Notes: generated from the letters alone by a model not told the origin. Positions 1 through 43,511 are shown, numbered from the stretch's first letter. The stretch: 43,511 nucleotides of DNA from a virus (IMGVR_UViG_3300005573_000146:1-43511), one strand, 5' to 3'. Numbers and translations: made by a program.

Positions 1-1
1 C

Positions 2-14991: not shown

Positions 14992-15054
14992 TAGCTGTGT
15001 CAGGCCGCCTGCATGCGACCTGGACGATACTCGGACGATACTGGAGAGGAGCCT

Positions 15055-22931: not shown

Positions 22932-23068
22932 AGTTCCGACGACTGGCGTTCTGGTGTCTGACTCCGATCACTGTCCCGGTCTTGATCGCGTCGTGCACCA
23001 TGGTCGGTGTGGCTCAGGCGGTCATTGACGAACTCGACAGCTACGAGCGATGGCCGTTTAGGTTCTAA
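22928..23068 (+). CDS. 46-aa membrane / putative lipoprotein
   Basis: Not in the ORF track. MKFRRLAFWCLTPITVPVLIASCTMVGVAQAVIDELDSYERWPFRF; ATGA overlap with the upstream gene and TAATG overlap with terL. Confidence 0.6.
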   Translation: MKFRRLAFWCLTPITVPVLIASCTMVGVAQAVIDELDSYERWPFRF

Positions 23069-24981: not shown

Positions 24982-24984
24982 CAC

Positions 24985-26877
24985 ATGCCACTGAGCATCA
25001 CCCCACGCAAGGTCCAGGAAGCCGTCCATCGCGGAGTGAAGCGGATGCACAACTTCCGTGCCGCTCGGCTCATGTTCCTGCGGAACTACGTCGGCCAGTA
25101 TTACGACCGTGCGAGCGGCGAAGTCGGCACCGAGGCGTTGGGCCTGATCTTCAACGCGATCCGGGCACTCGTGCCCCATATCGTGATGAACTTCCCGCAT
25201 TTCAACCTTCGCAGCCCCTATCTGGCCATGCAGGACTACGGCGAGCTTCTGGGGTTGGCGATCGACCAGCACAGCATCAAGATCGACGTGAAGTCGAAAT
25301 ACCGCCGGGGTCTGGTGGACTCCATCTTCACGCTGGGCGTCTGGAAAACCGGGCTCGCCCAGAGCAACAGCCTGTATGCCATCGACCCCGACGACCGCAT
25401 TGACGGGGGCACGGTATACACCGAAGTCGTGGACTTCGATAACTTCGTAGTTGACCCCAATTCCCGCGAGCATCTGTTTGCGGACGCCCGCTTCCTCGGC
25501 GACCGAATCTACATCTCCCGGCAAAAGCTCCTGGACAGCGGCCTGTACAAGAACGATTTGGTGGAGCGGCTGCCGCGTGTGGATTCCATGCACGCCCGCG
25601 ACCACGCCTACGAGCTTTCGATGCAGGGCATCCAGATCGACGAGAACTTCGAGATGGAAGACATCGTGGAAGTCATCGAACTATGGGTGCCGGCTGCTAG
25701 GGCGACGGTGACGGTGCCGGGTTCGCGGGAAGTCACGTTCGAGGATTTCCTGCGGGTGGACGATTTCTATGGGCCGGATGAAGGGCCGTACACGCTGCTC
25801 GCCCTGACGCCCCCGGTCCCCGGCAATCCGCTGCCGATCCCGATGGTGGGCGTGTGGAACGATCTGCACATCCTCGCTAACAAGATGGCGAAGAAGATCG
25901 TGGATCAGGCGTTGCGGCAAAAGGACATTGTAACCTACCGCCGGGCGGCGGCTGACGACGCTCAGGAGATGCTCGACGCACAGGACGGCGAGTCGATTGC
26001 TTGTGATGACCCGGATGGCGTGGCGGTCAAGAGCTTCGGCGGGCAGCAGAACAGCAACGAGGTTCACCTGTCGCAGCTTCAGGCGTGGTTCAACTACATG
26101 GCGGCGAACCCCGACGCCCTCGCGGGCCTCGGTATGAATACTGGATCGGCGACAGAGACGCGCGTGCTGGCAGGCAACGCCAGCGTCGGCCTCGAAGACA
26201 TGCGGGACATGATGTACTCGGCCGCCGCAGCCGAGGGACGCCGTCGGGCGTGGTACTTCCACACCGATCCCCTGATTGAAATTCCGCTGGTGCGTCGCAA
26301 GCCCATGCCGGCTCAGTACGTGCCGGGTATGAACGGGCCGCTCATGGTGACGCCCGCCCAGATCGTCGAGGAACAGGTGCTTCTGACGCCTGAGGCCCGG
26401 CGAGGCGACTTCATCGACTTCGTGTTCAGTGTCGAGCCCGAGTCGATGGGGCGGCGTGATTCCCGCACGCGGTTCGCTCAGGCCCTCGACTTCGCCACGA
26501 AGATTCTGCCGGCCGCCGCGTCTTCTGCACAGACGATGGCGTTGCTCGGCATTCCGTTCTCCGCGAAGGAGTTCATCGTCCGCATGGCCAAGGATGCGGG
26601 GATCGACTGGATGGATCAGGTCTTCTACGACCCCGAGTTCCAACAGCAAATGGCGATGCGGATGATGTCCGGCCCGCAGCCGCAGGACTCGAAGGGGCAG
26701 TTGGGCCAGAAGGTCCAGCCGAATCCGAGCGCGGGCGGAAGCCTGATGGACCAGATCGCCCAGAATGGCCAGCCGGCAAACGTGATGAACAACCCCGACC
26801 TAACGGAGCAGGCGATGGCCGAGTTCCAGTCGGGGGCCAATGAGGGGCAGGCGATGGTGAAGAAGGAGATGTTCTAA
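24985..26877 (+). CDS. Portal protein
   Basis: 630 aa directly after terL; GVWKTG, FVVDP, SATE motifs and a Gln/Met-rich C-terminal tail typical of podoviral portals. Confidence 0.82.
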   Translation: MPLSITPRKVQEAVHRGVKRMHNFRAARLMFLRNYVGQYYDRASGEVGTEALGLIFNAIRALVPHIVMNFPHFNLRSPYLAMQDYGELLGLAIDQHSIKIDVKSKYRRGLVDSIFTLGVWKTGLAQSNSLYAIDPDDRIDGGTVYTEVVDFDNFVVDPNSREHLFADARFLGDRIYISRQKLLDSGLYKNDLVERLPRVDSMHARDHAYELSMQGIQIDENFEMEDIVEVIELWVPAARATVTVPGSREVTFEDFLRVDDFYGPDEGPYTLLALTPPVPGNPLPIPMVGVWNDLHILANKMAKKIVDQALRQKDIVTYRRAAADDAQEMLDAQDGESIACDDPDGVAVKSFGGQQNSNEVHLSQLQAWFNYMAANPDALAGLGMNTGSATETRVLAGNASVGLEDMRDMMYSAAAAEGRRRAWYFHTDPLIEIPLVRRKPMPAQYVPGMNGPLMVTPAQIVEEQVLLTPEARRGDFIDFVFSVEPESMGRRDSRTRFAQALDFATKILPAAASSAQTMALLGIPFSAKEFIVRMAKDAGIDWMDQVFYDPEFQQQMAMRMMSGPQPQDSKGQLGQKVQPNPSAGGSLMDQIAQNGQPANVMNNPDLTEQAMAEFQSGANEGQAMVKKEMF

Positions 26878-26878
26878 G

Positions 26879-27220
26879 ATGCCGATGTACGACTACAAAT
26901 GCGATTACTGCCACGCTGAGCGGGATGAATTCCAGAAGATGAGCAGCGAGCCGTTGACGGTATGCCCCGTGTGCGGGGCCTCGGCGTACCATCGCGTACC
27001 GTCCCTGCCTAGCACCGACCTGAAGGAGTTCGATAAGCCGATCGAGATGTTCTCGATCGGGTTGAACGACGATGAGGAGATTCGGGAGTTCAAGGCCAAA
27101 TGTCCCGATGTGGACGTGGCGACAGACCCGAACGATCCACTCTACGGCGTACCGATCGCCCGCAGCCGGAGCCAGAAGAAGACGGCTCTGGCGGCGATGG
27201 GGTTCGTGGAGCGTAACTAA
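26879..27220 (+). CDS. FmdB-family zinc ribbon protein
   Basis: MPMYDYKCDYC...EFQKMSSEPLTVCPVCG. Confidence 0.85.
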   Translation: MPMYDYKCDYCHAERDEFQKMSSEPLTVCPVCGASAYHRVPSLPSTDLKEFDKPIEMFSIGLNDDEEIREFKAKCPDVDVATDPNDPLYGVPIARSRSQKKTALAAMGFVERN

Positions 27221-27247
27221 CAGGAGGCGAACAGACCGCAAATTTAT

Positions 27248-27276
27248 TTGACAGAACAGTGTTTGTGTGGTATAAT
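27248..27276 (+). promoter_or_regulatory. Consensus sigma70 promoter for scaffold/capsid genes
   Basis: TTGACA-gaacagtgtttgtgtgg(17)-TATAAT, perfect -35 and -10 with extended TG. Confidence 0.85.
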
Positions 27277-27343
27277 TCCAGTTGCAGACTTCGATTCTTT
27301 GGCCCCCTACCCCGGCATAGCCGGCAGCGGGCCGGGAGAACCC

Positions 27344-28462
27344 ATGCCGAATCTTGAAGATGGAGCCTCCGTGGAGGCTCAGGCTGCGGAAACGCAGCAG
27401 ACCGAAACCCCGTCGTTCGACCGTGCCGCTCTGGAGGCGAAAGTCTCCGAGAGCCTCGCCGCCGCGTTTGGTGACGACACCGAGGAAACCGCCCCAGCTA
27501 CTGACGAATCGGCTGATTCGTCAAAGGCCGAGGAGAAGGAAACCGAGGAAGCGAAGACCGGCGAGGATGAAGGTCAGGGTGCGGAGGAGCAGGGCAAGGA
27601 GGAGATCGAGATCGAAGGCAAGCCGGAGGAGACGGAGGAAGCAGCGGCCGAGGCCGGGAAGAAGCCGGACAACGCCCCTACCCTTCCCGACGCGTACCGC
27701 CGCAGCCTGAAGGCGTACGGATGGCAGGATGAGGATATCGACAAGAACCTGTCGCTCCTCGGCAACGAGTTCCTCAAGACCGCTGCCCTGATCCACTCCA
27801 ACCGGAACGCCGAAACCGCCCGGACGGCGGAGATCGGGCGTCAGGCCCGCCAGCAGCAACAGGAGCAGGCCGGCAACGCCCAGCAGCAGAAGGCCAGCGG
27901 CGGCATCGAGCCGCTGAAGCCGGTGGATGCTGATGCCCTGAAGGAGCATTTGGGCGATGACCCGATCGTGGAAAAGCTGGTTGGGCCGGTGAATGCCGCC
28001 ATTGAGCGGATCAACCAGATTCTTCCCGAAGTGTACACCTACCGTCAGTCTGCCCAGCAGGCCGAGCTTGAAACACTCGGTAAGCAGATTGACGAGTTCT
28101 TCGGGGATAAGGGTCTGGAGCCGTATCGCGAAGTGTACGGCGACGGGACGAGGACGCTGACGGAGCAGCAGATTCGAGCCCGCAACAAGGTGCTGGAGAC
28201 GGCGGACGCCCTGGTCTTGGGTGCGAAAATCCAGGGTCGCAAGCTCACTCTCGGTGAGGCGTTGCAAGCCGCTCACGATTCAGTCTCCGGCGAGTTCAAG
28301 GAGAAGGCTGTTCGCGCCACGATCAAGAAGACGCTGACGCAGCGGGCGAGGGGCATCACCCTGAAGCCCAGCAGCGGCAAGCCGTCCTCCGGCGGCGGAG
28401 TCGAGAGCCGTTCCGACCTGGAGAAGAAGACTGCTGAGCGGCTGCGGGCTGCGTTCGCCTGA
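27344..28462 (+). CDS. Putative capsid scaffolding protein
   Basis: Very acidic N-terminus and helical C-terminus, between portal and capsid. Start refined to MPNLEDG (GGAG RBS), because the track's start lies inside the promoter. Confidence 0.75.
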   Translation: MPNLEDGASVEAQAAETQQTETPSFDRAALEAKVSESLAAAFGDDTEETAPATDESADSSKAEEKETEEAKTGEDEGQGAEEQGKEEIEIEGKPEETEEAAAEAGKKPDNAPTLPDAYRRSLKAYGWQDEDIDKNLSLLGNEFLKTAALIHSNRNAETARTAEIGRQARQQQQEQAGNAQQQKASGGIEPLKPVDADALKEHLGDDPIVEKLVGPVNAAIERINQILPEVYTYRQSAQQAELETLGKQIDEFFGDKGLEPYREVYGDGTRTLTEQQIRARNKVLETADALVLGAKIQGRKLTLGEALQAAHDSVSGEFKEKAVRATIKKTLTQRARGITLKPSSGKPSSGGGVESRSDLEKKTAERLRAAFA

Positions 28463-28498
28463 TCGTTCTAGGAATCAAACGGAGAAGGAGAGTGAAGG

Positions 28499-29617
28499 AT
28501 GGGCGTTGACAATGATAAACTCGCTGACCTGATCGCGACTACCCTGAAGGACTTGCCCAAGGGGCAGTTCGAGGTCATGTGGGACAGCCAGGACTACGTG
28601 CTCTGCCGGATTTATCAGGAGCAGCGTCGTCAGATTGACGGCGGCACCAGCATCCAGCGAAACGTGATCCTGGATCGCAACGGGCGTGCTCGGTATCGTC
28701 GGCTGTATGACACCGATCAGCCCACCGTCGATCAGAACATGCACACGATCGACGTGCCGTGGACGCAGATCGGCACCGACTACTCGTGGGATGTCGTCGA
28801 AATCCTGCGAAACAAGAACTCCACCAAAGGGTTCATCAACCTCATGGAGTCCCGCCGCACCGAGCGCATGTGGGACTTGGCGGAACTGATCGAGGAACGC
28901 GGCTGGGCGACGCCGACGAGTGCGACCGACCGCCTCTACCCGTACGGCATCCCGTACTACATCAACTTCCTGGACAACGGCTCCAGCACCGGCGGCTTCC
29001 ACGGGAAGACGATCCGCTATCAGGGCGGCACCACGGGCACGATCTGTGCCGGCATCGACGCCGCGACCGAGGAGAAGTGGCGGAACTACGCCGACGTGTA
29101 CACGAAGGTCGATAACAGCCTGCTCCGCAAGCTGCGCTCGGCCGTGCGTCGCACCCGCTTCCGCCCCGCTCCGTTCGTGCCGCAGAACGGGCAGGATAAG
29201 CCGGGCCCGAAGATCGAGTTGTACTCCAACGACGCGATCGTGACGGAGATGGAAGACCTTGCCGACAAGAGGGACGACAACAACGCCCCGCAGGACTTGG
29301 CCGGCAAGATGCTGCACAGCTACGAGGGTGCGGTGTACTTCAACCGCATGCCGCTCCGGTACGTCCCGCAGTTGGACGGGCAGACGGTCGTGGACGGCGG
29401 CGGCAACACCTTCTCGCCTGATGCGATCTACTGCGCCGACTGGAGCAAGATGCAGCCGGTCGTGCAGGATGGTTACTGGATGGAGGAAAGCAAGCCGATG
29501 GTGGATCGTGGTCAGCACACCACGTTCACCGTGTTCCTGGACGGCTCGCACAACAACCTCTGCACGAACCGCCGGACGGTGGGCTTCGTGCTGCACAAGC
29601 TGATTCCCGCCGCCTAA
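28499..29617 (+). CDS. Major capsid protein
   Basis: 372 aa following the scaffold; IATTL, DGGTSI, N-terminal arm and C-terminal GSHNNLCTNRR pattern; strong RBS and downstream hairpin. Confidence 0.85.
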   Translation: MGVDNDKLADLIATTLKDLPKGQFEVMWDSQDYVLCRIYQEQRRQIDGGTSIQRNVILDRNGRARYRRLYDTDQPTVDQNMHTIDVPWTQIGTDYSWDVVEILRNKNSTKGFINLMESRRTERMWDLAELIEERGWATPTSATDRLYPYGIPYYINFLDNGSSTGGFHGKTIRYQGGTTGTICAGIDAATEEKWRNYADVYTKVDNSLLRKLRSAVRRTRFRPAPFVPQNGQDKPGPKIELYSNDAIVTEMEDLADKRDDNNAPQDLAGKMLHSYEGAVYFNRMPLRYVPQLDGQTVVDGGGNTFSPDAIYCADWSKMQPVVQDGYWMEESKPMVDRGQHTTFTVFLDGSHNNLCTNRRTVGFVLHKLIPAA

Positions 29618-29635
29618 ACGCGGCTGACGGTTACG

Positions 29636-29662
29636 GCGGGGCCGAGCGGTAATCGGCCCCGC
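29636..29662 (+). terminator. Hairpin after the capsid gene
   Basis: GCGGGGCCGA-gcggtaa-TCGGCCCCGC, 10-bp stem, weak U tract. Confidence 0.5.
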
Positions 29663-29719
29663 TTCTCGCATCGGGCGGGTGCCTGATGGAGAGACTTCTG
29701 AAGTGAGGAGAGTGACAAG

Positions 29720-30556
29720 ATGGGTTACGGACAGATTGGTTTTTCGCAGGTGGGCGACAGCAATCAGCCCTCCCCGAGCATCTGGGGCGATTGCCCTAAC
29801 ACGCTGCTCCAGGACAAGGGCCTCGGTTACTTCGCCCATGTGGATTTTCTGGGTGCCCCCACGGGCGTCCTCGCCACTGCACTAGACGCGACGACGTGCA
29901 GCTTCGGCGGCGGCTTGAAGATCAGTTGTGACACGGACACCGTGCTCGCGATGAAGGCTGCCGAACAGGGCGGCTATCTGGACATCGAGACGGACGGTGA
30001 CGACAACGACGCCGCTGCCCTGTTCAGCCAGCCCTTCGGCTCCATCGTGAAGAACAGCGGCAAGAAGCTGTGGTTCGAGGCCCGCCTTGAACTCGGTGCG
30101 ATCGGCGATCAGGGCGTGTTCGTCGGGCTTGTCGAGGAAGCCGGGGCGACGCTCGATGTGATCGCCGACAATGCCGGTGCCGATGGTGTCGTGGGCAAAT
30201 CCCTGATCGGGTTCGTGTGCGACAACGGCGACACCGATGCGTTCGACGCGATCTACCGCAAGGACGCGGGCGCTGTTGTCGATGTCCTGAACGACGTGAC
30301 GAACGCGACCGCGATCCCCAGCGACGAGCGTGCCGCCGTCGCTCGGGATACCGAAGTCAAGCTCGGCCTTCGCTTCGACGGTCGGGACAAGCTGACGTGG
30401 TACGTCAACGGCACCCCCGTCGCCCATCGGATCGTTGATGGCACGATCGACCAGAGCAAGAACTACTGTGCGATCGTCGGCATCAAGACGGGTGCCGCCG
30501 CCGCTCAGTCGATCGCCGTGGATTGGGTGCGGTTCGCCGCTCAGGTCCGCAGCTAA
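29720..30556 (+). CDS. Virion structural protein (decoration / lectin-like beta-sandwich)
   Basis: LWFEARL, KLGLRFDG..LTWYVNG, IAVDWVRFA are concanavalin-like strands; follows the capsid gene. Confidence 0.6.
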   Translation: MGYGQIGFSQVGDSNQPSPSIWGDCPNTLLQDKGLGYFAHVDFLGAPTGVLATALDATTCSFGGGLKISCDTDTVLAMKAAEQGGYLDIETDGDDNDAAALFSQPFGSIVKNSGKKLWFEARLELGAIGDQGVFVGLVEEAGATLDVIADNAGADGVVGKSLIGFVCDNGDTDAFDAIYRKDAGAVVDVLNDVTNATAIPSDERAAVARDTEVKLGLRFDGRDKLTWYVNGTPVAHRIVDGTIDQSKNYCAIVGIKTGAAAAQSIAVDWVRFAAQVRS

Positions 30557-30580
30557 GCCCCGAAATCCGTGAGAAAACCG

Positions 30581-30610
30581 GCCCCCTTCTCCTGACACGG
30601 AGGAGGGGGC
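30581..30610. terminator. Hairpin / putative terminator
   Basis: GCCCCCTTCTCC-tgacac-GGAGGAGGGGGC, 12-bp stem, intergenic. Confidence 0.55.
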
Positions 30611-30631
30611 TATCTGCGTGAAAGGCACCCC

Positions 30632-31660
30632 ATGTCCGAGCCGACCAGCACCCTCACCTTCGCTGACCTGATCCTCGAAGTCGCTCACAAGCTGGGCATC
30701 GCCTACTACGGGGCGGACGGCGACGAGGCGGCACAGGTGCCGGTGGACGCCCACGATCTCGATGAGTGCAAGCGGATCGTGAACAACGCGATCCGCATGT
30801 TCATCAGCGACGCCCCGCAGCCGAACGGCTGGCGTTGGCTCCGTCCGATCGCGACCGTAACGCTGTGGACCACGATCCCAGCGGATGTGACAAATACCAT
30901 CACGGCGGTCTATGACGCGGGGACGGGGAAGACGACCCTGACGGCGGTGCGTGAGTCGTTCTATCCGTCGATGGAACTCAAGTCGATCGTGCTCACCGAC
31001 ACAGGCACGTTCACCATTTCTGATTACGTGTCGGCGACGCAGATCAAGGTCTCTGGCAACGCCGCTGCGGCGAACGGCAAGACCTGGAGCATCGAGACGG
31101 ACGGCAACTACACGCTGCCCCAGACCTTCGGCGGCCAGTACAGCGGCGACATCACCTTCATCGCGGGCACGCGACGCGGCACCGGACTGGACTGGACCGA
31201 TGAGTCCGTGATCCGCAAATGGCGGCAGAACATCACCGACCATTCCGGCACGCCGTTCCTGGTTGCGGTTCGCCCGATGACGACGGGTACGCCTCGGCGT
31301 CGTTGGGAGCTGCTCATGTGGCCGAAGCCGATCGAAGTGCTGCACGTCGAGTTTCCGTACACCCTGCACTTCGATTCGCTCGTCAACCTGACTGACGTTC
31401 ACCCGGCACCGTTCGGCTTCGACGAGGCGGTCAAGGCCGCGTGCCTTGCTGTCGCCGAGAAGGAGAAGAACGACACGCTCGGCGTGGACTGGCAATACTA
31501 CCGGGAAGTGGCCCTTCCCAACGCTTATCGTGTGGACGCGATGAGTGCTCCGAAAAAGCTGGGGTACTTTGGCAATCCGGGTCCGGTCAAAGCATCGGAG
31601 GCGATTCGGTATTTCCGCAATCGCCTCTACCAGCGTCCGAGTGTGACCCTCAACGGGTGA
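30632..31660 (+). CDS. Putative head-tail adaptor (tail tubular A-like)
   Basis: LTFADLILEV, IVNNAIR...WRWL, YTLP..F, LLMWPKP, P..FDEAVKAACLA fit the adaptor pattern; position after the head genes. Confidence 0.65.
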   Translation: MSEPTSTLTFADLILEVAHKLGIAYYGADGDEAAQVPVDAHDLDECKRIVNNAIRMFISDAPQPNGWRWLRPIATVTLWTTIPADVTNTITAVYDAGTGKTTLTAVRESFYPSMELKSIVLTDTGTFTISDYVSATQIKVSGNAAAANGKTWSIETDGNYTLPQTFGGQYSGDITFIAGTRRGTGLDWTDESVIRKWRQNITDHSGTPFLVAVRPMTTGTPRRRWELLMWPKPIEVLHVEFPYTLHFDSLVNLTDVHPAPFGFDEAVKAACLAVAEKEKNDTLGVDWQYYREVALPNAYRVDAMSAPKKLGYFGNPGPVKASEAIRYFRNRLYQRPSVTLNG

Positions 31661-31697
31661 TTCGAATCTCCGAGTCCCCAAGCAAGGAGAGTGAGAG

Positions 31698-32420
31698 ATG
31701 AAGTTCAGTCTGAACAACTTCCTGTATGCCATCAAGCAGATTGTGACCGGCGACAAGGCGGAGGATGGCGGCTTCCTGAAGAAAGACGAGGGTATCTCCC
31801 TCGCGACGTTGCGGCCGGTTCTGAACCTGTCCGCGATCAAGGACAACACGGGCGGCGTGGTTTCCACCACGATCGCCAACACCGCCGGATCCGCCCCGAC
31901 CACGGCGGAGTTCGAGAACGCCATCGCTTCGATCGTGGCTCAGTTGAACACGATCGTCAATCACCTGTCCGGCACCGCGAGCGAGACGAACGCTCGGGTG
32001 CTCCAGGTGGAGAATGGCGTGGACACGATCGGCAACATCCGGTACGTCGTGCCCCGCGACTACGACGAGGCGGTGGACTCGCTGAAGCTCCGCGTGCTGG
32101 CCTCGGTGCTCGGCGTGGCGACGGACGGTGACGTGCAGCTTGACGCGGAAGTCTACGTCAAGAAAGCCGGTGTCGCACTGTCGGCGGACAAGAACCCTGA
32201 TAAGCCGGCGACGGTGTTGGCAGTGGCGGAGCAGTGGGTGGAGTTCGACCTGTCCGGCTATGGGCTCAAACGCGACGACATCGTGTACATCAAGCTCATC
32301 ACCGATGGGCACAACGACACGGTCGGCGAGGAAGTCCAGGTTCACGATCTGGAGCTTGTCTACCGCAGCACGCTCGTCAGCTACAACGAGAACGACTCCA
32401 GCGGGAACGGTCTCCGCTAA
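31698..32420 (+). CDS. Putative virion structural protein
   Basis: 240 aa, strong AAGGAG RBS, in the structural operon. Confidence 0.6.
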   Translation: MKFSLNNFLYAIKQIVTGDKAEDGGFLKKDEGISLATLRPVLNLSAIKDNTGGVVSTTIANTAGSAPTTAEFENAIASIVAQLNTIVNHLSGTASETNARVLQVENGVDTIGNIRYVVPRDYDEAVDSLKLRVLASVLGVATDGDVQLDAEVYVKKAGVALSADKNPDKPATVLAVAEQWVEFDLSGYGLKRDDIVYIKLITDGHNDTVGEEVQVHDLELVYRSTLVSYNENDSSGNGLR

Positions 32421-32427
32421 CTCAGGA

Positions 32428-32451
32428 TCGGACTCCCTAACGGGAGTCCGA
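32428..32451 (+). terminator. Putative intrinsic terminator
   Basis: TCGGACTCCC-taac-GGGAGTCCGA followed by a pyrimidine run. Confidence 0.6.
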
Positions 32452-32462
32452 CCCCTTTCCTT

Positions 32463-34790
32463 ATGGCAAAGCAAAACGCCAAGTATCAGTTCCCGATCAA
32501 GGGCGTCGTCAAGACGATGGGCTTCGAGGACCATCCAGCCGACGCGATGGTGGACGCCCTGAACGTGATGCCGTGGGATCGCTCTGGCCGGCTCCGCCTC
32601 TGCCAGCGAACCGGCACGTCGAAGCTGTACGCTGATCCGGTCGGGACTGGCGGCGTGAAAGCCATGATGCAGGTGACGCTCGGCTCTCAGCCGCAGTACG
32701 GCCGCACCGTGGAGTCGATCGTGAATCCGCTCCCGGAAGTCTGGGCGGAGCACTTCGTCGGCTGGGTGATTTACGTGGGCGACGGCATGTGGGCGTTGGC
32801 TCGGCCCGGCCTTTGGCTGCCGAGTGCGAACGGCTACGGCGACGCCTTGGCCCAGATCGGCATTGGCTCTGGCTTCGTGCCGAGCGAAGTGGCTGGCGGA
32901 CCTGATGGCGATGCGTTCCTTCGCATCACGCCCGGCCCCGCAAATCCTGGTGATGCCCAGAGCCGATCGCTGGCCCTCGGCGTCCAGGAAGTCGTGACGC
33001 CCGCCGACCACACGGCCTTTGTCTGGATGAATATGGACGCGGCCCCGGCCGGCACGACGGTCTATCTGTCGGCCCGGTACAAGCCGACGTACCTTGATTA
33101 CTCGCGGCTGGCCGGCATGATCCATCTCGCCATCACGGATCGCACGACCGTTCGTGTGATCTTCGGCAACCCCGATTCCGGGCTGGTGTTGTTTACGAAT
33201 GTGTGCGCACTGGCGGGCTGGGTCAAACTTCGCATCGACACAATCCCGGTGGACGGCACCGCGACCAGTGAGCAGCGTATCCACCACTTCTACATCAACG
33301 ACGTGCGGATTTTCTCCGTGCAGACTGCGACTGCCGCCGGGCCGGAATACGACACCAGCGATTGGGAGTTCACGCAGCACACCTTCGGCGTCGCGTTCAC
33401 CACGCTCAGCGGCTACGTCGATTTCGATTGGGCCGCCGGCTACGAGATGGACGTTGCCGATTCGGTCGTAGGGCTGAAACGTGACAACAAGATCGTGTAT
33501 GGCGTCGGCGGGGACGTGGCACTCGGCGACCTGAACAGTGTGACGACTTCCACGGCGGGCTCTGCCAAGTTGGATGTCATGGCTCCCTTCGTATCCGTCG
33601 CATCGTCTTCGCTGAAGGCGTACATCGTCGATGGAACGAACACGAAAGTCCTGGACCTGAAGACGAACACCCTGAGTGACTTGACCGCGACGGCGGGTGT
33701 GCTTCCGACGCGGTGCAAGCTCGCATGCATGTACCGGGACAGGCTCGTGCTCGCCGCTCCCGAGGGCGAGGAGCATTGCTTCTTCTTTAGTCGCGTTGGG
33801 CATCATACGGACTTCGACTACACGATCTTGAACGATCCGGCCGCCGCCTTCGAGGGCAATGCCAGCACGGCAGGCCATATCGGCGACCCGATTGTTGCCC
33901 TGATCCCGCTGTCGGACGATCAACTGCTGATTTCTTGCGATCACCAATTGTGGATCGTTCGAGGCGACCCGGCAGATGGAGGCAGCATCGACCTTCTCGC
34001 TGATGTCGGTGTGCTGGGTGCCTCGGCGTGGTGCAAAGACCCCAACGGCGTCGTGTACTTCGTCGGCACCGGCGGCCTGTATCGCATGATCCCCGGCGTC
34101 CGACCCGAGTGCCTAAGCAACGACAAATGGAATGAGTTCTTTAGCCGAATCGATCGCACCCGGAACGCGGTCTTGATGGCGTGGGACTTGGATGGGCAGG
34201 GGGCGTACATCTTCGTGACACCCTACGCCAGCGGCCCGAGCACAGCCCTTTGGTTCGACGGGCGGCTCTCGGCCGGAGACGCCCGTTGCAGCCTATGGCC
34301 CATCGCGATTCCCGCGAACCACGGGCCGCTGTCTGTGCTGGTATACGACGGCGATGGTGCCACTGATCGCCGCATCCTGCTCGGCGGCCGGGACGGCTGC
34401 GTTCGCGGTCTTTCGCATGTGGCGAAGACTGACGACGGCGAGACAGTTTCCAGCTACGCGATTCTCGGGCCGTACACCCTCGGCGAAGTCGAGGCGGTCA
34501 TGGAGTGGATCGACGTTGTGATGAGCCGGCCGATCGGAAGTGACGCCGCCTCTGATACGCACATGCTGCTACAGGTGCTCTCCGGCCAGAGTGCGGAGCA
34601 GGCGATGGCGGCCCCCTACCTGACGCGGAGCAAGACAATCTCCACGACGGGCCGGCAGGGTCGCTGGCTGAACCGCACTCGCGGCGTGACGTTTTTCCTG
34701 AAGGTGTCGAATTCCGTCGCCGGAAAAACCTTCGCGGTTGAGAAAGTGGACTTCGGCCTGTCGAGTTGCGGCATTGTGCGGAGGCGGTAA
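32463..34790 (+). CDS. Tail nozzle / stabilisation protein (tail tubular B / P22 gp10-like beta-propeller)
   Basis: DALNV...GRLR..RTG N-terminus, YRDRLVLA, FFSRVG, GDPIVAL, VYFVGTGGLYR blades; 775 aa. Confidence 0.72.
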   Translation: MAKQNAKYQFPIKGVVKTMGFEDHPADAMVDALNVMPWDRSGRLRLCQRTGTSKLYADPVGTGGVKAMMQVTLGSQPQYGRTVESIVNPLPEVWAEHFVGWVIYVGDGMWALARPGLWLPSANGYGDALAQIGIGSGFVPSEVAGGPDGDAFLRITPGPANPGDAQSRSLALGVQEVVTPADHTAFVWMNMDAAPAGTTVYLSARYKPTYLDYSRLAGMIHLAITDRTTVRVIFGNPDSGLVLFTNVCALAGWVKLRIDTIPVDGTATSEQRIHHFYINDVRIFSVQTATAAGPEYDTSDWEFTQHTFGVAFTTLSGYVDFDWAAGYEMDVADSVVGLKRDNKIVYGVGGDVALGDLNSVTTSTAGSAKLDVMAPFVSVASSSLKAYIVDGTNTKVLDLKTNTLSDLTATAGVLPTRCKLACMYRDRLVLAAPEGEEHCFFFSRVGHHTDFDYTILNDPAAAFEGNASTAGHIGDPIVALIPLSDDQLLISCDHQLWIVRGDPADGGSIDLLADVGVLGASAWCKDPNGVVYFVGTGGLYRMIPGVRPECLSNDKWNEFFSRIDRTRNAVLMAWDLDGQGAYIFVTPYASGPSTALWFDGRLSAGDARCSLWPIAIPANHGPLSVLVYDGDGATDRRILLGGRDGCVRGLSHVAKTDDGETVSSYAILGPYTLGEVEAVMEWIDVVMSRPIGSDAASDTHMLLQVLSGQSAEQAMAAPYLTRSKTISTTGRQGRWLNRTRGVTFFLKVSNSVAGKTFAVEKVDFGLSSCGIVRRR

Positions 34791-36838: not shown

Positions 36839-37633
36839 ATGCTGGGGATAGACACGATCTTGAACAACGTGGCCGAAACGATCGACAACGCGGCGGAGTG
36901 GGCCGGTGGCGGCGGGAGCGCACAGCCTTCAAGCGGGCCTACGTTTTACTCGTTACCGCAGGAGCAGGGGCAGCAGCCACAACGACAACAGCAGCAGAGT
37001 GGTGGAGGCGGAACGGGTGACGTGTTTGATATATTACGAGCCGGAGGTCATGTCGGCCGCTTGTCCAAAGACCCTATTGTAACTAACCCGTACGCGATGA
37101 AGGTGACTGGAGTCGGCGGAAACGTGAACAACCTGATCGGTCAGTTCATGGACGCCTACAACAAGTCGAATCAGGACAGCCTTGCTCAGTACAAGAATCT
37201 GCTCGCGTCCGTGAACCGGACGAAGGCAGACGTGGGCGGGCTGTTCCGCAAGGCGTTCGGCCAGTTGAAAGGCTACGGCAAGTCCGCCATGCAGGACATC
37301 GCCGACCAGCAGGTGACGCAGACGGGGCAGGCGATGCAGGATGCGATCTCGCGCGGCCTGAGCAACACGAGCCTCGCCATGAATGCCCTCCGTGGGGCGT
37401 CCCTCGACGCCGACAAGAAGCGGCTGCTCCTGCGAGACCAGATCGCCGGGCAGAAGTCGAATCTGCTGACGCAGCAGGCCGGAATGAACTTCAACCTCGG
37501 CAACCTGATGGCGGACTCGATCCTATCCCGCCAGAATCAGGGGCCGGACATGGGCCTGTACATGCAACTGATTCAGCAGTTGGCGGCGTCTCAAGCGGGG
37601 CAGAGTAGCGTCGGCGGTCTCGTTGGGAGGTAA
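36839..37633 (+). CDS. Putative internal virion (ejection) protein 1
   Basis: Gln/Gly/Ala-rich helical protein (ISRGLSNTS); first of three genes of increasing size after the fibres. Confidence 0.6.
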   Translation: MLGIDTILNNVAETIDNAAEWAGGGGSAQPSSGPTFYSLPQEQGQQPQRQQQQSGGGGTGDVFDILRAGGHVGRLSKDPIVTNPYAMKVTGVGGNVNNLIGQFMDAYNKSNQDSLAQYKNLLASVNRTKADVGGLFRKAFGQLKGYGKSAMQDIADQQVTQTGQAMQDAISRGLSNTSLAMNALRGASLDADKKRLLLRDQIAGQKSNLLTQQAGMNFNLGNLMADSILSRQNQGPDMGLYMQLIQQLAASQAGQSSVGGLVGR

Positions 37634-38719: not shown

Positions 38720-41700
38720 ATGCCTACCTTTGAAGAAGCACAACAGAGTCTCCAGCGTGTCCGCGTGGAGTATCCGCAGTATGCGGACATGGACGATACG
38801 ACGCTCGCGACGCGACTGTCTCAGAAGTACCCGGAATACGGCGACATCGCTCAGGCGATCGCCAGCCGCCCGGCCCGGCGGGACGTGCCGATGGCCGAGC
38901 AGCAGATTCCGGGCGTGAGCCGCATCTTCGAGGGCATGGAGCCCGAGGCGTATTCCGGGCTCCTGAAGACCGGCATCACCCCCGGCACCGCCATGCATTT
39001 CGCCGCCGCTCACATCGAGCATGAGAACGCGATCCGTGCTCAGAACGGCGCGGCCCCGGTGTCGCCAGGCGAGCAGCTTGCGATTGAGGACATCTATAAG
39101 CAAGCCGCCGGACGCGGTGATCTCAGTAGCCACGACTTCTACCCGGAAGTTCGGCAAGAGCGGCTGGCGGCCCGCGATAAGACGGTGGGCGGGAGACTGA
39201 CAAATTTCGCGGTCGGCGCTGTGGACACCTTGGCAGCCCAGCCCATCAACGCGATGCTCAGTACCGTGGCCCCGGAGACAGCCCGCGATCTGCGGCGCGA
39301 AACGGAAATGGGCCTAGGCGTTGACCCGAAAAGCTGGTCAGGGTGGTCTGGGCACATGACCGGCAACCTCGCCAAGCTGGCTATCCTTCAAGGCGCAGGC
39401 ACCCTCCCGATGACAGCGGAGTTCGCGGTTGAAGGGTTTGGCGGCTCCCGCGCGGAGACCCAACAGCTTCGCGAGGAAGGCAAGGTTATCTCTGGTTGGA
39501 ATGACATCAAGACGGCGGCGGAGAGAGCGGCGGTACAAGCCGGTGTCGGTCTGATTCAGAACAAGATTTTCGGGGGGTCGCAGGCGTTCGGCAGGAAGCT
39601 CGTCGAGGACGCGGCGGTCTCGGGCGGTCAAACGCTGGCTGATAACTGGCTGGCCCAGAACATCGACCCGACCCGCAAGCTGAGCCAGGGCGTCGTTGAA
39701 GCCGTGGCAACGTCTCCGCTGTTCACCGCTGTCGGCCACGCTGTCGGAGTGAATGAGAGAAACCAGAAGATCAGGGAAGACAAGGTTCGCACGGCCAAAG
39801 AGATACTGCGCGAGATGGACGCGCGGGCCGCCAGTAACGAGACCATGGTCGCGGCCCGCGACGTGCGGCTCGGGGATGCGAGGGTGGAGGGGGAGACCGG
39901 AGTAAAATTAGAAGGAGTTTCAACGGATGCTGAAACCGCCCACCGGTTTGGTGAAAAGCCAACGGGGCTTTTCACCAAACCGGTGGGCGACGCGATCGGA
40001 TTCGACGATTCAGGATTACCGCACTCCTTGGAAGACAGGGCGTCGGATAACGGGTTCGTGGCGGCATGGAAAGACAAAAACACCGGAGAGATTTTCACCG
40101 GGGAGACGCACGACAAGGCCATTCCCGACAAATACTTGGACGCCCAAGGATTCCCTGACGAATCGCGGCTCGATCAGCTAATCGACGGCTTTGTCAAGGA
40201 CGGCAGGTTCCTTACCCGGGAAGAAACAAGCGCGGCGTTAAAGCAGAGTAAGCCGGTCAAAGACTTGACAGAGGCTCAGGTCAACATCCCCGACCCCGCA
40301 CGGCAGGCCGCCGTCGAGCGGCTGAAGGGCCTCGGGATCAAGACCCTGAGCGGCGAATGGTCGAAGGGCGAGAAGGTTCCGCTCGAAGACGCCCCGACGG
40401 AAAAGGTGCTGCGGGCCGAGCAAGTCGCCCGCGAGAAGGGTTTGCTGAAGGGCGGGGATCACGTCCAGGGCAAGCAGGATCAGGTGCAAGTCACGCAGCC
40501 AGGCGAGCCTGCGGGGCCGGAAGGCCGACGTAAGGTTCTCCCTGATCTGCCAGGAGACCACGGGAAGTGGAAGTATCAAGCCCTGAAAGACTGGGCGGAA
40601 GCGAACGGCTACGAGACGAAGGGCATCAAGGGTCGCGCGCATTTGCTGACAGCGATCGAGGCTCAACAAGCTAAGGCCCGTATCGACAAACTTTCCCGCA
40701 ACAACGTCACGGGCGGGTTGAACGCCGTGCTGTTCCAAGAGGGGTCGGAATCCCTACAGAAGCACTCCGACGAAACGGGAAAGCCGCATTCAATGATCGT
40801 GTTCGACGCGGCGAACCTGAAAACGTACAACGACAAACTCGGCGAACAGGCCGGCGACGACTATCTACGTCGAGTGATGCAGGCCGTCGAAGGGGGGACG
40901 CGCGTCGGCGACAGCAAGCGAGCCGGCGACGCCTATCACTATGGCGGCGACGAATTCGCGATCCTGCTCCCTAATACCGACGCGGCGGGGGCGAAGATCG
41001 TGCGGGATCGAATCGAAAAAGCATTCGGGAAGCATGAGATCGTTCACGGCGTCAGCGATTTCCTCGTAGGTGGAGTGGCTGAGTACAAGCCCGGCAGCGG
41101 CGAGGGGTACGAGGCCATGAAGAACCGGGCGTCCGTCGAAATGAAGGCTCGGAAGTTGGCCATGAAGAAAGCGATGGGGGAGGCCACGACACGCGAGGAA
41201 GCGGAGCGGCGGCTGAAGGATGCAGGCAAAGCCGCCCCCTTGGAGGAAAGCAAGCTAGGACTTGAACGGGCGGACGTGAAGGGCAACCTTGATCCCCGCG
41301 TGCTGGAGGTAGCGGAGAACGTGCGAGCCACTACGCCGAGCGATGGGCTGGAGGGCTTGAAGGCTGACCTGAAGGGCGTGCATGAGACTGCCTACAAGTC
41401 GCCCCCAATCATGGGGACGTACAACAAGTATCCCCGTCGTCGGTTCGAGGGCTTCGAGGATTGGGTTACGGGTATCGGCGACCGGATGTACGAGATCGCC
41501 CCCAGCGTCTTCGACCGCATGAAGCGAATGGACTTTCAGACGGGTGTTCGCCAGCAAGAGGTAGCTAAGAGTCTGGCGGAGCACGTACAGAATCTCTATG
41601 ACGCCGTAGGGGGGAAGAAGTCGCAGAAGTACCAGGAACTCGCCCTCGCTCTCTACAACATGGACCGGGCTGCCGCCGACAGACTCGTCGGCCCTGGGCA

Positions 41701-43511
41701 CCGGGCGGACTTGGATGCCGCGTATGCGAGTTTCCGAGACAGGATCAACGAAGCGAAAGCCGCAGGCGTGAAGGTCGGTGATTTGGGCGAGAACTACTGG
41801 CACCGCCGGGCCAGGGATTACGAGTCGTTGAGGAAGCTGCTGGGCAACAATATGGGGGTGTTCGAGGAAGCGTGGAAAGTCGCCGAGGAATCGTTGGGGC
41901 GGCCCCTCCGCGACAGCGAGAAGTACCAAGTTGCAGTCACATACATGGAAGGCCGCGGCCCGCGCAAAGCCGGCGAGTCGGGGCTTACGTTTCAGAAGGA
42001 ACGTAAGATCGACCTGATCACGAAGGAGATGCTTCCGCTGTACGCTGATCCGTTCGACAGTCTGCTGCGGTACAACAATGAGATGATCGCCGCGACGGAG
42101 CGAGCGAAGTTCCTCGGCAAGAACCACGATCCCGCGAACCTAAAGGATTCGGTGGGCCGGATCATCACGGAGGAGATCGCCGCCGGGCGCATGGACCCGG
42201 AGGCCCAGCGGGAAGTGAACGGACTGCTGCGGTCCCGGCTCACCGGCGAGATGCTGGGCATGACGCCGGGGTTCAGGGCGGCCAAGCAGAGTATCCTGCT
42301 CACGTCGCTGGTCCGCGTAACCAGCGCCCTCGCCCAGATCAAGGACGTGGGAATCTCCGCTTACGCACACGGAATAGGGAATACGGCGAAGGCTTTGTTC
42401 GGGCCGCGAGACCAGAAGATTTACACGGAGGAGCTAGGATTCCACGGGCACGGCGAAGAATTCAAGGATGTCGGTCGGCTCGCAAAGACATTGGATCGCG
42501 GTTTGAAGGCCGTCGGATTCACCCGCATCGATCGTCTCGGCAAGGAGACGTTCATCAACGCCGCGAGGATGGACTTCCAGAACGCGGCGAAGCACCCGGA
42601 GGGCAGCAGATACGCCAAAATCCGCCGGGATTGGGAGCCGGTTCTGGGTGCGGAGCGGTTCAAGGAAACGATGGCCGATCTGGCAAAGGGCGACTTCCGC
42701 TCCGAGGATGTCCGCTACATGCTCAACGTGGACATCTGCAAAGTCCAACCTATGACGCTTACGGAGATGCCCAAACAGTATCTCGACATGCGGAACGGCC
42801 GGCTGTTGTATACCCTGAAGTCGTTCACGCTCCGGCAGTTCAACTACTTCCGCAATGAAACGTTTCGGAAGATGGCGACGCCGGGACAGCGGGTGGAAGG
42901 CGTCCGCAACCTCGCCCGGTTCACAGCGATCGTCGGGGCGGCTAACTTCGGCGTAGACCTTCTCCGTGATTGGATCAGGGGCAAGCGTATCTCGATAGAC
43001 CAGATTCCCGATCGGGCGATTGACGCGGTGTTGGGCATTATCGGGGTCAACAAGTTCTTGGGCAAGGGTCTTTGGGAAGACCCGGTAGAGGGTCTGATGA
43101 AGATCATCGCTCCGCCGGCGGGAATCTTCAAGGCCGTGTGGCGGGACGCGACGGGCCAGGGCCACGGGGAAACCTTGCAGTACACCCCCGGCTTCGGGGA
43201 CTTCGGATACTACCGCCTCGGTCACGGTGCCACGCTGAACGAACAGGAGGCGAGGCAGGACTACAACAGCAGGCTCCGCAAGCTGCACACACAGGCGGCG
43301 GCGGCCAAGAATTCAGGCGACACCGCAACCGCTCGCTCGCTGATGAACGTCTATAACGAGAGCCTGAAGGAGACCCCCACAGGCGCGAAGCGGCGGAAGC
43401 CGTTGACGTTCCGTGACCTCGACTATCCGCCCATGGACAGCGGAGAGCGGGAGGACAAGAAGAAGGCAAACGAGGCGGCCCTTGAAGCCGTGAGAAGCGG
43501 CGACTTGGAAG
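38720..43511 (+). CDS. Large internal virion / ejection protein (more than 1597 aa, 3' end outside the window) with an internal GGDEF domain
   Basis: Not in the ORF track because it has no stop in the window. My translation is open from ATG 38720 (MPTFEEAQQSLQRVRVEYPQYADMDDTTLATRLSQKYPEY) to the end. GGDEF domain at ~40700-41170; the C-terminal part (ENYWHR, LLRY, GRLLYTLKSF) resembles podoviral large ejection proteins. Confidence 0.85.
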   Translation, partial: MPTFEEAQQSLQRVRVEYPQYADMDDTTLATRLSQKYPEYGDIAQAIASRPARRDVPMAEQQIPGVSRIFEGMEPEAYSGLLKTGITPGTAMHFAAAHIEHENAIRAQNGAAPVSPGEQLAIEDIYKQAAGRGDLSSHDFYPEVRQERLAARDKTVGGRLTNFAVGAVDTLAAQPINAMLSTVAPETARDLRRETEMGLGVDPKSWSGWSGHMTGNLAKLAILQGAGTLPMTAEFAVEGFGGSRAETQQLREEGKVISGWNDIKTAAERAAVQAGVGLIQNKIFGGSQAFGRKLVEDAAVSGGQTLADNWLAQNIDPTRKLSQGVVEAVATSPLFTAVGHAVGVNERNQKIREDKVRTAKEILREMDARAASNETMVAARDVRLGDARVEGETGVKLEGVSTDAETAHRFGEKPTGLFTKPVGDAIGFDDSGLPHSLEDRASDNGFVAAWKDKNTGEIFTGETHDKAIPDKYLDAQGFPDESRLDQLIDGFVKDGRFLTREETSAALKQSKPVKDLTEAQVNIPDPARQAAVERLKGLGIKTLSGEWSKGEKVPLEDAPTEKVLRAEQVAREKGLLKGGDHVQGKQDQVQVTQPGEPAGPEGRRKVLPDLPGDHGKWKYQALKDWAEANGYETKGIKGRAHLLTAIEAQQAKARIDKLSRNNVTGGLNAVLFQEGSESLQKHSDETGKPHSMIVFDAANLKTYNDKLGEQAGDDYLRRVMQAVEGGTRVGDSKRAGDAYHYGGDEFAILLPNTDAAGAKIVRDRIEKAFGKHEIVHGVSDFLVGGVAEYKPGSGEGYEAMKNRASVEMKARKLAMKKAMGEATTREEAERRLKDAGKAAPLEESKLGLERADVKGNLDPRVLEVAENVRATTPSDGLEGLKADLKGVHETAYKSPPIMGTYNKYPRRRFEGFEDWVTGIGDRMYEIAPSVFDRMKRMDFQTGVRQQEVAKSLAEHVQNLYDAVGGKKSQKYQELALALYNMDRAAADRLVGPGHRADLDAAYASFRDRINEAKAAGVKVGDLGENYWHRRARDYESLRKLLGNNMGVFEEAWKVAEESLGRPLRDSEKYQVAVTYMEGRGPRKAGESGLTFQKERKIDLITKEMLPLYADPFDSLLRYNNEMIAATERAKFLGKNHDPANLKDSVGRIITEEIAAGRMDPEAQREVNGLLRSRLTGEMLGMTPGFRAAKQSILLTSLVRVTSALAQIKDVGISAYAHGIGNTAKALFGPRDQKIYTEELGFHGHGEEFKDVGRLAKTLDRGLKAVGFTRIDRLGKETFINAARMDFQNAAKHPEGSRYAKIRRDWEPVLGAERFKETMADLAKGDFRSEDVRYMLNVDICKVQPMTLTEMPKQYLDMRNGRLLYTLKSFTLRQFNYFRNETFRKMATPGQRVEGVRNLARFTAIVGAANFGVDLLRDWIRGKRISIDQIPDRAIDAVLGIIGVNKFLGKGLWEDPVEGLMKIIAPPAGIFKAVWRDATGQGHGETLQYTPGFGDFGYYRLGHGATLNEQEARQDYNSRLRKLHTQAAAAKNSGDTATARSLMNVYNESLKETPTGAKRRKPLTFRDLDYPPMDSGEREDKKKANEAALEAVRSGDLE
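40700..41170 (+). other. GGDEF (diguanylate cyclase-like) domain within the giant ORF
   Basis: NNVTGGLN...SMIVFDAANLKTYNDKLGEQAGDDYLRRV...RAGDAYHYGGDEFAILLP...GGVAEY...RASVEMKARK. GGDEF is encoded at 40943-40957, in frame with ATG 38720. Confidence 0.9.

What the first reader, a model, noticed from the sequence alone, without database searches (positions are those of the whole stretch)
38720..43511. GGDEF diguanylate-cyclase-like domain inside a giant, probably injected, virion protein
Seen: an unlisted ORF of more than 1597 aa, last of three ejection-type genes, has at residues ~661-817 a full GGDEF domain with the metal-binding Asp (VFD), K..ND..G...GD and an exact GGDEF. There is no sensor domain. 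Deviations: the usual Arg two residues before GGDEF is His, GH is GE, and the RxxD (RAGD) sits 4 rather than 5 residues upstream. Established: GGDEF domains make c-di-GMP on dimerisation, podoviral ejection proteins enter the cell as oligomers with the DNA, and large phage proteins can carry enzymatic cargo. Inference: the virion may deliver a pre-oligomerised, possibly feedback-insensitive cyclase that changes second-messenger levels at entry, before any phage transcription. It could alter attachment, motility, receptor display or lysogeny, or interfere with nucleotide-based immunity by making a decoy or consuming GTP. This is the best candidate for a new system here; I cannot verify novelty without a search.
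Basis: partly seen in the sequence, partly recalled or inferred. Interest (0 to 1): 0.9.

Follow-up and report, generated by a model that had tools for sequence, protein, structure and literature searches.

The report
Phage ejection protein carrying GGDEF cyclase
An uncultured, integrase-encoding tailed phage, likely of Phycisphaerae bacteria, has a 1,628-residue protein, predicted to be injected with its DNA, that carries a phage-specific, swappable and likely active copy of the enzyme domain that makes the bacterial signal c-di-GMP; the design was predicted by computer in 2017 and I found no bench test of it.

Summary
The ORF at 38720 is a 1,628-aa gene, ending 31 aa past the window in a second assembly. 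Its GGDEF domain (PF00990 E 1e-15; WspR-like fold, Z 22) is not chimeric. Its C-terminal part weakly matches the PhiM1/T7-gp16-type ejection protein.

All metal- and guanine-binding residues are present. The domain belongs to a phage-specific GGDEF lineage (51 domains found, 46 in proteins of 1,000 aa or more). The 'deviations' are shared, co-varying changes of an 18-member subgroup, not decay. The cassette is swapped, gained and lost among ejection scaffolds, whose relatives carry ADP-ribosyltransferase, RNase or sigma domains. A syntenic prophage with its own GGDEF sits in a Phycisphaerae genome.

Best reading: an injected polyvalent-type protein that likely makes c-di-GMP at entry. 'Feedback-insensitive' is doubtful because the RxxD and its partner arginine are co-conserved, and GTP depletion is implausible. 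Iyer et al. 2017 already report GGDEF in phage polyvalent proteins with the same hypotheses, and this scan found the design before on other DNA. Activity and packaging are untested. New variant of a known kind.

The parts
38720..43511 (+). Giant last ejection-type gene; 1597 of 1628 aa lie in the window
39197..39754 (+). Gly/Ala-rich, weakly hydrophobic helical region (aa ~160-345), shared with relatives; inferred membrane-crossing region like T7 gp16 TMH I
   Evidence: hydropathy peaks of only 0.9-1.2; N-terminal homology; analogy from PMC8954989; inference
40037..40234 (+). Small unassigned domain (aa 440-505, H...GF..DGRFLTREE); not found in any other fetched protein
40532..40675 (+). HeH/Lsr2/Ish1-like two-helix module, 2-4 copies in 8 other relatives; putative DNA binding
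   Evidence: function inferred
40652..40696 (+). Stalk helix leading into the wide turn (NNVTG); an amphipathic stretch precedes the turn in the lineage members listed
   Evidence: model helix 41-55 = aa 645-659
40700..41167 (+). GGDEF domain aa 661-816: D696, D744, E745 (metals); N704, D713 (guanine); K701; K812, K816 (gamma-phosphate)
   Evidence: residue roles from PMC8041772 and PMC6456294
40919..40930 (+). RAGD (RxxD), candidate product-inhibition site, together with R764 at 41009-41011
40943..40957 (+). GGDEF motif; GGDE in 51 of 51 lineage members
41168..41233 (+). Lineage-specific C-terminal extension (K..GE.TTR.EAE helix) in place of the canonical GRN strand
41432..43510 (+). All-helical conserved scaffold; best structural match is the PhiM1 tetrameric ejection protein (8vb2_A)
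   Evidence: scaffold homologues P0041 and P0043 hit phrog_342 'internal virion protein'
36839..37633 (+). First ejection-type gene (264 aa), inferred from position; homologues at the same place in L038, L039, L040, L066
37637..38716 (+). Second ejection-type gene (359 aa), inferred from position and Gln-rich helical make-up
   Evidence: similar N-termini at the same place in relatives
23068..34790 (+). Podovirus-type virion module: terminase, SU10-like portal, major capsid, tail/nozzle gene
15013..16323 (+). Tyrosine integrase (temperate lifestyle inferred)

Best explanation
This is the phage's largest, likely virion-packaged gp16-type ejection protein, whose swappable middle slot carries a phage-lineage GGDEF domain that likely makes c-di-GMP from host GTP once the ejected ring clusters it on the cytoplasmic face of the membrane. 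Shown: the domain, its fold, its catalytic residues, the lineage, the cassette swapping, the gene position and a related prophage in a Phycisphaerae genome. Inferred, step by step: (1) 4-6 copies are packaged and ejected ahead of the DNA, as for T7 gp16. (2) The region between the two hydrophobic stretches reaches the cytoplasm. (3) Neighbouring subunits pair their GGDEF domains through the stalk helix and a re-wired interface, so no sensor is needed. (4) A few enzymes give a brief sub-micromolar to micromolar c-di-GMP pulse before phage transcription, probably capped by the RxxD/R764 site. (5) The pulse would push the host towards its attached, non-motile state or re-tune c-di-GMP-dependent surface structures, favouring establishment of this temperate phage and exclusion of rivals. 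Step 5 is the weakest.
For: Domain and fold: PF00990 E 1.3e-15. AF2 model at pLDDT 86; top matches are WspR, PadC, PleD; Z 21.9, rmsd 2.0 over 157 residues; model K816 aligns with PleD R446. Selection on the active site: across 51 lineage domains at 20-45% identity to this one, D696, N704, GGDE, K812 and K816 are each 51 of 51, D713 47 of 51 and K701 46 of 51, against a median column conservation of 0.43. These are the metal, guanine and phosphate ligands named for DgcR. Asp at 713 with GGDEF specifies GTP (PMC6456294 section 12). Dimer interface kept under selection: where canonical enzymes have the modelled cross-subunit pairs H/D and D/Y, 18 members including this one have acid709 with K809, 18 of 18. 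Ejection scaffold: last of three genes after the tail genes in this phage and in L037-L040. PhiM1 ejectosome chain is Foldseek's rank 1 (E 6.8e-3, prob 0.92), and in VIA-align it has Z 7.0 over 230 residues, twice the aligned length of any other row shown. T7 core protein is at rank 18. Two scaffold homologues hit phrog_342. Cargo: scaffold relatives carry ART-PolyVal, PBECR5, ECF sigma or a metallopeptidase-like domain. The GGDEF lineage also rides on LPD38 and DdrB-ParB proteins. GGDEF identity does not track scaffold identity (Spearman -0.14, 276 pairs), and presence changes at least 5 times on a 32-row scaffold tree. Host: a syntenic prophage (TerL 52%, portal 46%, capsid 48%) on a 112-kb contig of G255, class of G001 (Phycisphaerae); its last big gene also has a GGDEF; that genome has 9 PF00990 matches in all.
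Against: No activity, packaging or localisation was measured. The domain departs from canonical cyclases at several conserved sites: DxD second Asp to Ala (lost in 50 of 51, D or N in 217 of 217 other domains), DxLT to NNVT, R366 to His, H340 to Glu, and the cross-dimer R300 position is Ala here (Arg in 29 of 51). Intact motifs do not guarantee activity (PMC13725321 passages). The structural link to ejection proteins is weak: no PDB hit at E<=0.001, rmsd 6.5, Z below the level the tool calls safe for helical proteins. The window's own scaffold has no meaningful PHROG hit. Hydrophobic segments are weak. In PhiM1 the enzyme domain just before the matched region is a putative peptidoglycan hydrolase, which would be periplasmic. 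The 18-member covariation is one clade, so one event. No control class was searched for the host assignment, and the genomes are likely MAGs.
Confidence: 0.55

Rival explanations
1. The domain is an active injected nucleotidyl-transferase, but the lineage-wide changes alter its product (linear pppGpG, another linkage or a mixed purine dinucleotide), used as a decoy or jammer of nucleotide-based immunity.
For: Lineage-wide substitutions next to the triphosphate loop (A698 or G in 48 of 51, N699 in 47 of 51), R446 to Lys in a new helix, and a re-wired interface. The cross-dimer Arg affects product ratio in GacA and is Ala here. Slot-mates are conflict enzymes. Related palm enzymes make decoy nucleotides (PMC12657218).
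Against: D713 and N704 are the guanine-reading pair. Asp at this site made GacA a pure diguanylate cyclase. The fold is closest to WspR/PleD. A probable c-di-GMP I-site is co-conserved.
Confidence: 0.15
2. The domain no longer cyclises but binds GTP or c-di-GMP, acting as a sensor that couples DNA entry or the lysis-lysogeny choice to host state, or as a small sponge.
For: Loss of several canonical dimer and turn residues. RxxD and R764 retained together. It sits beside a putative DNA-binding module. Four members lack both K332 and D336 equivalents.
Against: A binder would not need GGDE in 51 of 51 including the Glu proposed for catalysis, K701 in 46 of 51 and compensated cross-subunit charges. 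Four to six copies make a poor sponge (inference).
Confidence: 0.17
3. The enzyme is active, but its effect matters late in infection, when the gene is newly expressed in bulk, or in the lysogen, and not at entry.
For: Few copies are ejected. Three 179-199-aa stand-alone or fragment members exist. Iyer 2017 suggests a role while integrated.
Against: 46 of 51 members are fused into proteins of 1,000 aa or more. Persistent fusion to virion-type scaffolds is hard to explain if delivery is irrelevant.
Confidence: 0.1
4. Assembly chimera or neutral captured host fragment.
For: One other assembly of this phage (L002) is chimeric 97 bases after the stop codon.
Against: Two assemblies and an independent-study contig span the domain. 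25 other proteins join the same GGDEF lineage to the same scaffold. Active-site residues are near-invariant.
Confidence: 0.02

Closest known systems
GGDEF domains of phage/prophage polyvalent proteins (Iyer, Burroughs, Anand, de Souza, Aravind 2017, PMC5512222; example Acetonema longum WP_004096050.1)
   Same: GGDEF inside a giant portal-terminase phage protein predicted to be injected; domains shuffled with ART, PBECR, DdrB-ParB, LPD38, MutS-I, HEH; same functional hypotheses.
   Different: Called 'not very widespread' there, with no lineage, residue analysis or host group in the sections read. Here GGDEF is the only recognised enzyme, on a gp16-like scaffold with no Pfam LPD hit. Whether the Acetonema domain is in this lineage was not tested, and the paper's FTP supplements were not seen.
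Canonical diguanylate cyclases WspR, PleD, DgcR, PadC
   Same: Fold (Z about 20-22), stalk helix and wide turn, metal ligands, guanine pair, lysines, RxxD plus R390 equivalent.
   Different: No sensor domain; DxA-N instead of DxD; NNVT; His for R366; acid709/K809 instead of the H340/D435/Y439 contacts; insert in the I-site loop; extra C-terminal helix.
T7 gp16 / Pectobacterium phage PhiM1 tetrameric ejection protein gp48 (PDB 8VB2; PMC11440229, PMC8954989)
   Same: Largest and last of three ejection-type genes; helical scaffold with a weak structural match; enzyme cargo N-terminal to the matched region.
   Different: Cargo is a nucleotide cyclase domain and not a peptidoglycan hydrolase; 10-15% identity; oligomer state unknown.
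Hypr GGDEF cGAMP synthases (GacA, PMC6456294)
   Same: GGDEF (not GGEEF) motif; cross-dimer Arg position not Arg in this protein.
   Different: The signature Ser/Thr is Asp713 here, which predicts GTP-only use.
Phage peptides activating host YfiN (PMC8085984; listing and abstract start only, plus passages in PMC11461919)
   Same: A phage raises host c-di-GMP.
   Different: They act on a host cyclase after expression; here the phage would bring its own enzyme in the virion.

Membership tests
GGDEF domain (PF00990) | Profile score over the curated cut-off | tested here: met
   58 bits vs 23.8, E 1.3e-15
GGDEF domain (PF00990) | Palm fold of diguanylate cyclases | tested here: met
   pLDDT 86; Z 21.9, rmsd 2.0, 157 aligned to WspR 3i5b
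Canonical (class I) diguanylate cyclase | Metal ligands D327/E370/E371 and GG[DE]EF | tested here: met
   D696, D744, E745
Canonical (class I) diguanylate cyclase | Guanine pair N335/D344 and lysines K332, K442, R446 | tested here: met
   N704, D713, K701, K812; R446 is conservatively K816
Canonical (class I) diguanylate cyclase | Full signature: DxLT, DxD, R300, H340, R366 | tested here: not met
   NNVT, DAA, A669, E709, H740; so not filed as class I, and fits the ambiguous class II of PMC13725321
Canonical (class I) diguanylate cyclase | Product-inhibition site RxxD five residues before GGDEF, with R390 | tested here: inconclusive
   RxxD at spacing 4 here, 4-10 in the lineage; co-occurs with R764 in 38 of 39; geometry not checked
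Canonical (class I) diguanylate cyclase | Forms a face-to-face dimer | not tested
   The complex predictor was not available; stalk helix predicted only
Canonical (class I) diguanylate cyclase | Makes c-di-GMP from GTP | not testable with these tools
   needs an enzyme assay
Hypr GGDEF (cGAMP synthase) | Ser/Thr at GacA position 348 | tested here: not met
   D713; lineage has D 47, N 3, G 1 of 51
Phage polyvalent proteins (Iyer 2017) | Multidomain protein in a phage with portal-terminase packaging, among virion genes | tested here: met
Phage polyvalent proteins (Iyer 2017) | Domains exchanged with the polyvalent repertoire among homologues | tested here: met
   ART-PolyVal and PBECR5 on scaffold relatives; LPD3, LPD38, DdrB-ParB, MutS-I, ART on GGDEF-lineage relatives; swapping
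Phage polyvalent proteins (Iyer 2017) | Several disparate activities in this one chain | tested here: inconclusive
   one recognised enzyme, plus a putative HeH-like module and an unassigned domain
Phage polyvalent proteins (Iyer 2017) | Packaged and injected | not testable with these tools
   needs virion proteomics
gp16/TEP-type podophage ejection protein | Largest, last of three genes after the tail genes | tested here: met
gp16/TEP-type podophage ejection protein | Structural homology to solved ejection proteins | tested here: inconclusive
   8vb2_A Foldseek E 6.8e-3; Z 7.0, rmsd 6.5, 230 aligned
gp16/TEP-type podophage ejection protein | Two membrane regions flanking a cytoplasmic hub | tested here: inconclusive
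   weak hydropathy peaks at 163-342 and 1192-1474 against the T7 layout
mCpol / Cas10 palm polymerases | GGDEF motif nearly absent; closer to Cas10/OptS than to cyclases | tested here: not met
   exact GGDEF; the rows shown in both fold searches are GGDEF proteins

The most novel reading that the evidence does not exclude
Tailed phages have domesticated their own GGDEF lineage, with a remodelled triphosphate loop and dimer interface, and inject it as a pre-clustered, sensor-free enzyme that makes a non-standard guanine nucleotide signal to jam or pre-empt nucleotide-based immunity before any phage gene is expressed.
Probability: 0.15. Interest if true: 0.85.

Novelty: new variant of a known kind. 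Interest (0 to 1): 0.5.

Why it matters
No virion-delivered second-messenger synthase turned up as experimentally shown in my searches. If the reading holds, a phage rewrites host c-di-GMP at the moment of entry, before transcription. The 2017 prediction becomes directly testable: a compact ~200-residue module, a defined lineage signature, 51 natural variants with and without the inhibition site, and a candidate host class. The architecture itself is in print, which limits the surprise.

Tried and rejected
- Chimera hypothesis: rejected.
- Hypr/cGAMP signature: absent.
- mCpol/Cas10 identity: rejected.
- A paired 'eraser': the calcineurin-like phosphoesterase downstream in L042 does not track GGDEF. 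It is found in L011 (no GGDEF), L003 and L040, and not in the fetched parts of L037-L039.
- GTP depletion: rejected by a rough sum from recalled values (4-6 enzymes against about a million GTP molecules).
- Atlas search of residues 438-512: no usable hit. Residues 900-1520 gave only unnamed viral clusters and one set with LPD39 on 28% of members.
- Annotated phage collection: 14 records at 28-35% identity, annotated (where annotated) as diguanylate cyclases, none close.
- Terminase not found in G001, so L041 is a different element.
- No RNA holder listed.
- VIA re-alignment of Foldseek hits was not obtained for the scaffold model.
- Whether L041's neighbours make a phage was not settled.

Full report
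Observation. The window is one phage record with a podovirus-type virion module, an integrase and a family A polymerase. The ORF at 38720 is open at the window end. The identical full protein is 1628 aa. Locus L042, from a 46,787-bp contig, matches window 30640-43511 at 100%, gives the stop 31 codons further on and continues into window 1-4561, so the genome closes with about 3.2 kb missing from the window. PF00990 matches residues 668-816 at E 1.3e-15. An AlphaFold2 model (pLDDT 86) is closest to WspR, PadC and PleD, with Z 21.9 and rmsd 2.0 over 157 residues to isolated WspR GGDEF. A 2,035-bp contig from another study spans the domain and both flanks.

The scaffold. A search with residues 880-1520 gave 68 proteins from the 7,991 candidates scored; 7 of 68, this protein included, carry PF00990. 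I scanned 28 distinct hits against Pfam: two carry ART-PolyVal plus PBECR5, one ART alone, one an ECF sigma factor with peptidase M15, and one a sub-threshold metallopeptidase-like domain. The scaffold model (pLDDT 87, all helical) has no PDB match at E<=0.001. Its rank 1 in Foldseek is the PhiM1 ejectosome chain 8vb2_A (E 6.8e-3), and T7 core protein is at rank 18. VIA-align ranks the same chain third (Z 7.0, rmsd 6.5), with 230 aligned residues against 39-113 for the other rows shown. This is weak alone. It agrees with gene position (last of three genes after the tail genes here and in L037-L040) and with phrog_342 'internal virion protein' hits for 2 of 3 scaffold homologues tested. T7 gp16 is present as four to six copies and places its middle region in the cytoplasm between two membrane regions (PMC8954989 passages). 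Here, weak hydrophobic stretches lie at 163-342 and 1192-1474, with GGDEF between them.

The GGDEF lineage. A profile of 16 domains was run against 1.84 billion representatives; the best 150 were listed. Of 271 domain matches among all fetched proteins, 54 scored 150 bits or more and the rest 102 or less. I dropped 3 near-duplicates, leaving 51, of which 16 were training rows, so the score gap is partly circular. 46 of 51 lie in proteins of 1,000 aa or more. With 40 of the 217 other domains, they form one side of a branch (SH-aLRT 99, quick search, signature columns included). D696, N704, GGDE, K812 and K816 are each 51 of 51, D713 47 and K701 46, against a median column conservation of 0.43. 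These correspond to the metal, guanine and phosphate ligands of DgcR (PMC8041772 passages); the alignment ends with K816 on PleD R446. Asp at 713 with GGDEF specifies GTP in GacA (PMC6456294 section 12). Lineage marks are loss of the second Asp of DxD (50 of 51, against D or N in 217 of 217), N699, F781 and a C-terminal helix.

The deviations. His740, Glu/Asp709 and Asn661 occur together in 18 of 18 members and in none of the other 33. The same 18 have Lys809 and have lost the acid at 805. Positions 705, 709, 805 and 809 are the cross-subunit contacts modelled for DgcR, so the interface looks re-wired and not lost. The 18 are one subgroup, so this is one event kept through long divergence. The cross-dimer Arg is Ala669 in this protein (Arg in 29 of 51), a real departure. 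An RxxD is present in 39 of 51 (100 of 217 others) at spacings of 4-10. It goes with Arg764 in 38 of 39, against 3 of 12 without (rows are related). Feedback inhibition is therefore more likely kept than lost, but the one-residue shift was not checked in three dimensions.

Cassette behaviour. Of 47 lineage members with sequence after the domain, 26 share this scaffold and 21 fall into 12 other groups. The others include LPD38, DdrB-ParB, MutS-I, ART and radical-SAM proteins. Among 24 proteins with both parts, GGDEF identity does not follow scaffold identity (Spearman -0.14; for example 72% against 22%, and 25% against 68%). On a 32-row scaffold tree, presence changes 6 times, 5 forced by starred branches. 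The nearest scaffolds, P0004 (probably N-truncated) and P0006, lack the domain. The domain is optional cargo, not part of the ejection mechanism.

Host. The one genome-collection hit for the lineage was an uncultured Phycisphaeraceae contig. In 401 genomes of that class, 8 match the capsid protein. G255 holds a syntenic prophage (terminase 52%, portal 46%, capsid 48%) followed by host-type genes on a 112-kb contig, and its 1674-aa last big gene has a more divergent GGDEF ending GGDEN. G255 has 9 PF00990 matches, one of them the prophage's. No control class was searched.

Mechanism. Most likely (0.55) the protein is ejected as a ring, its GGDEF domains pair through the stalk helix, and a short c-di-GMP pulse, capped by product inhibition, shifts host state before phage transcription. 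By a rough sum from recalled turnover rates, a few enzymes could make hundreds of molecules in minutes, enough to move a sub-micromolar pool but not to drain GTP. The downstream target is unknown. Rivals: nucleotide binder or sensor (0.17), altered product (0.15), late or lysogen-stage action (0.10), artefact (0.02).

Prior knowledge. Iyer et al. 2017 (PMC5512222; sections 6, 21, 22 read whole, plus passages) describe GGDEF in phage polyvalent proteins and propose interference with host nucleotide responses. Its FTP supplements were not seen and may already list members of this lineage. Passages only: PMC7824862, PMC6456294 (plus section 12), PMC8041772, PMC11440229, PMC8954989, PMC13725321, PMC12657218, PMC11461919. 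Listing and abstract start only: PMC8085984. Searches showed no experimental test of a virion-borne GGDEF; most subscription journals are not covered. This scan noted the design in five other genomes; no look-alike of this sequence was indexed. PleD residue numbers are derived from DgcR numbering plus 153 and from recall.

Verdict. Real, not chimeric, likely active. A new variant (a phage-domesticated, swappable GGDEF lineage on gp16-like scaffolds) of a kind predicted in 2017 and apparently untested. Interest 0.5.

Noticed in passing
L002:13906-14270: After 97 bases past the big gene's stop, this assembly diverges from L042 and reads as the C-terminus of a sugar-porter transporter (family recalled from its motifs); probably a chimeric join, since the integrase lies far away.
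   Followed up: partly
L042:14439-16352 (-), the part of the genome missing from the window: A calcineurin-like phosphoesterase and a dATP/dGTP diphosphohydrolase-DUF4406 fusion; the fusion is conserved in most close relatives and hints at nucleotide-pool editing or base modification.
   Followed up: partly
window 3463-3537 (-): tRNA-like gene with an 8-base anticodon loop (caca), unassigned by ARAGORN.
   Followed up: no
window 4634-5419 (-) and 13292-14725 (-): A GroES/Cpn10-like domain in a 261-aa ORF, and a GHKL (HATPase_c_3) ATPase near the integrase.
   Followed up: no
window 40532-40675: HeH/Lsr2/Ish1-like module found in 2-4 copies in 8 other relatives, with or without GGDEF; weak PHROG hit to the endonuclease VII C-terminus.
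   Followed up: partly
proteins P0173, P0190, P0210: 179-199-aa stand-alone or fragment members of the phage GGDEF lineage; context not fetched.
   Followed up: no
proteins P0003, P0009, P0010, P0134: A subgroup lacking the K332 and D336 equivalents and the RxxD, with ERR/DRR motifs just upstream of the domain; may bind or make something different.
   Followed up: partly
protein P0062: A scaffold relative carrying an ECF sigma factor and peptidase M15, a possible injected sigma factor.
   Followed up: no
proteins P0112, P0115, P0128: Giant proteins with two GGDEF domains (one also with a poly(A) polymerase/CCA head), and one with DnaJ, lineage GGDEF and radical SAM.
   Followed up: no
L068/L069 (G097:C10) and L070 (G202:C61): More distant related prophages in the same class, with giant genes of 2,600-3,500 aa that did not match the GGDEF or scaffold profile.
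   Followed up: no
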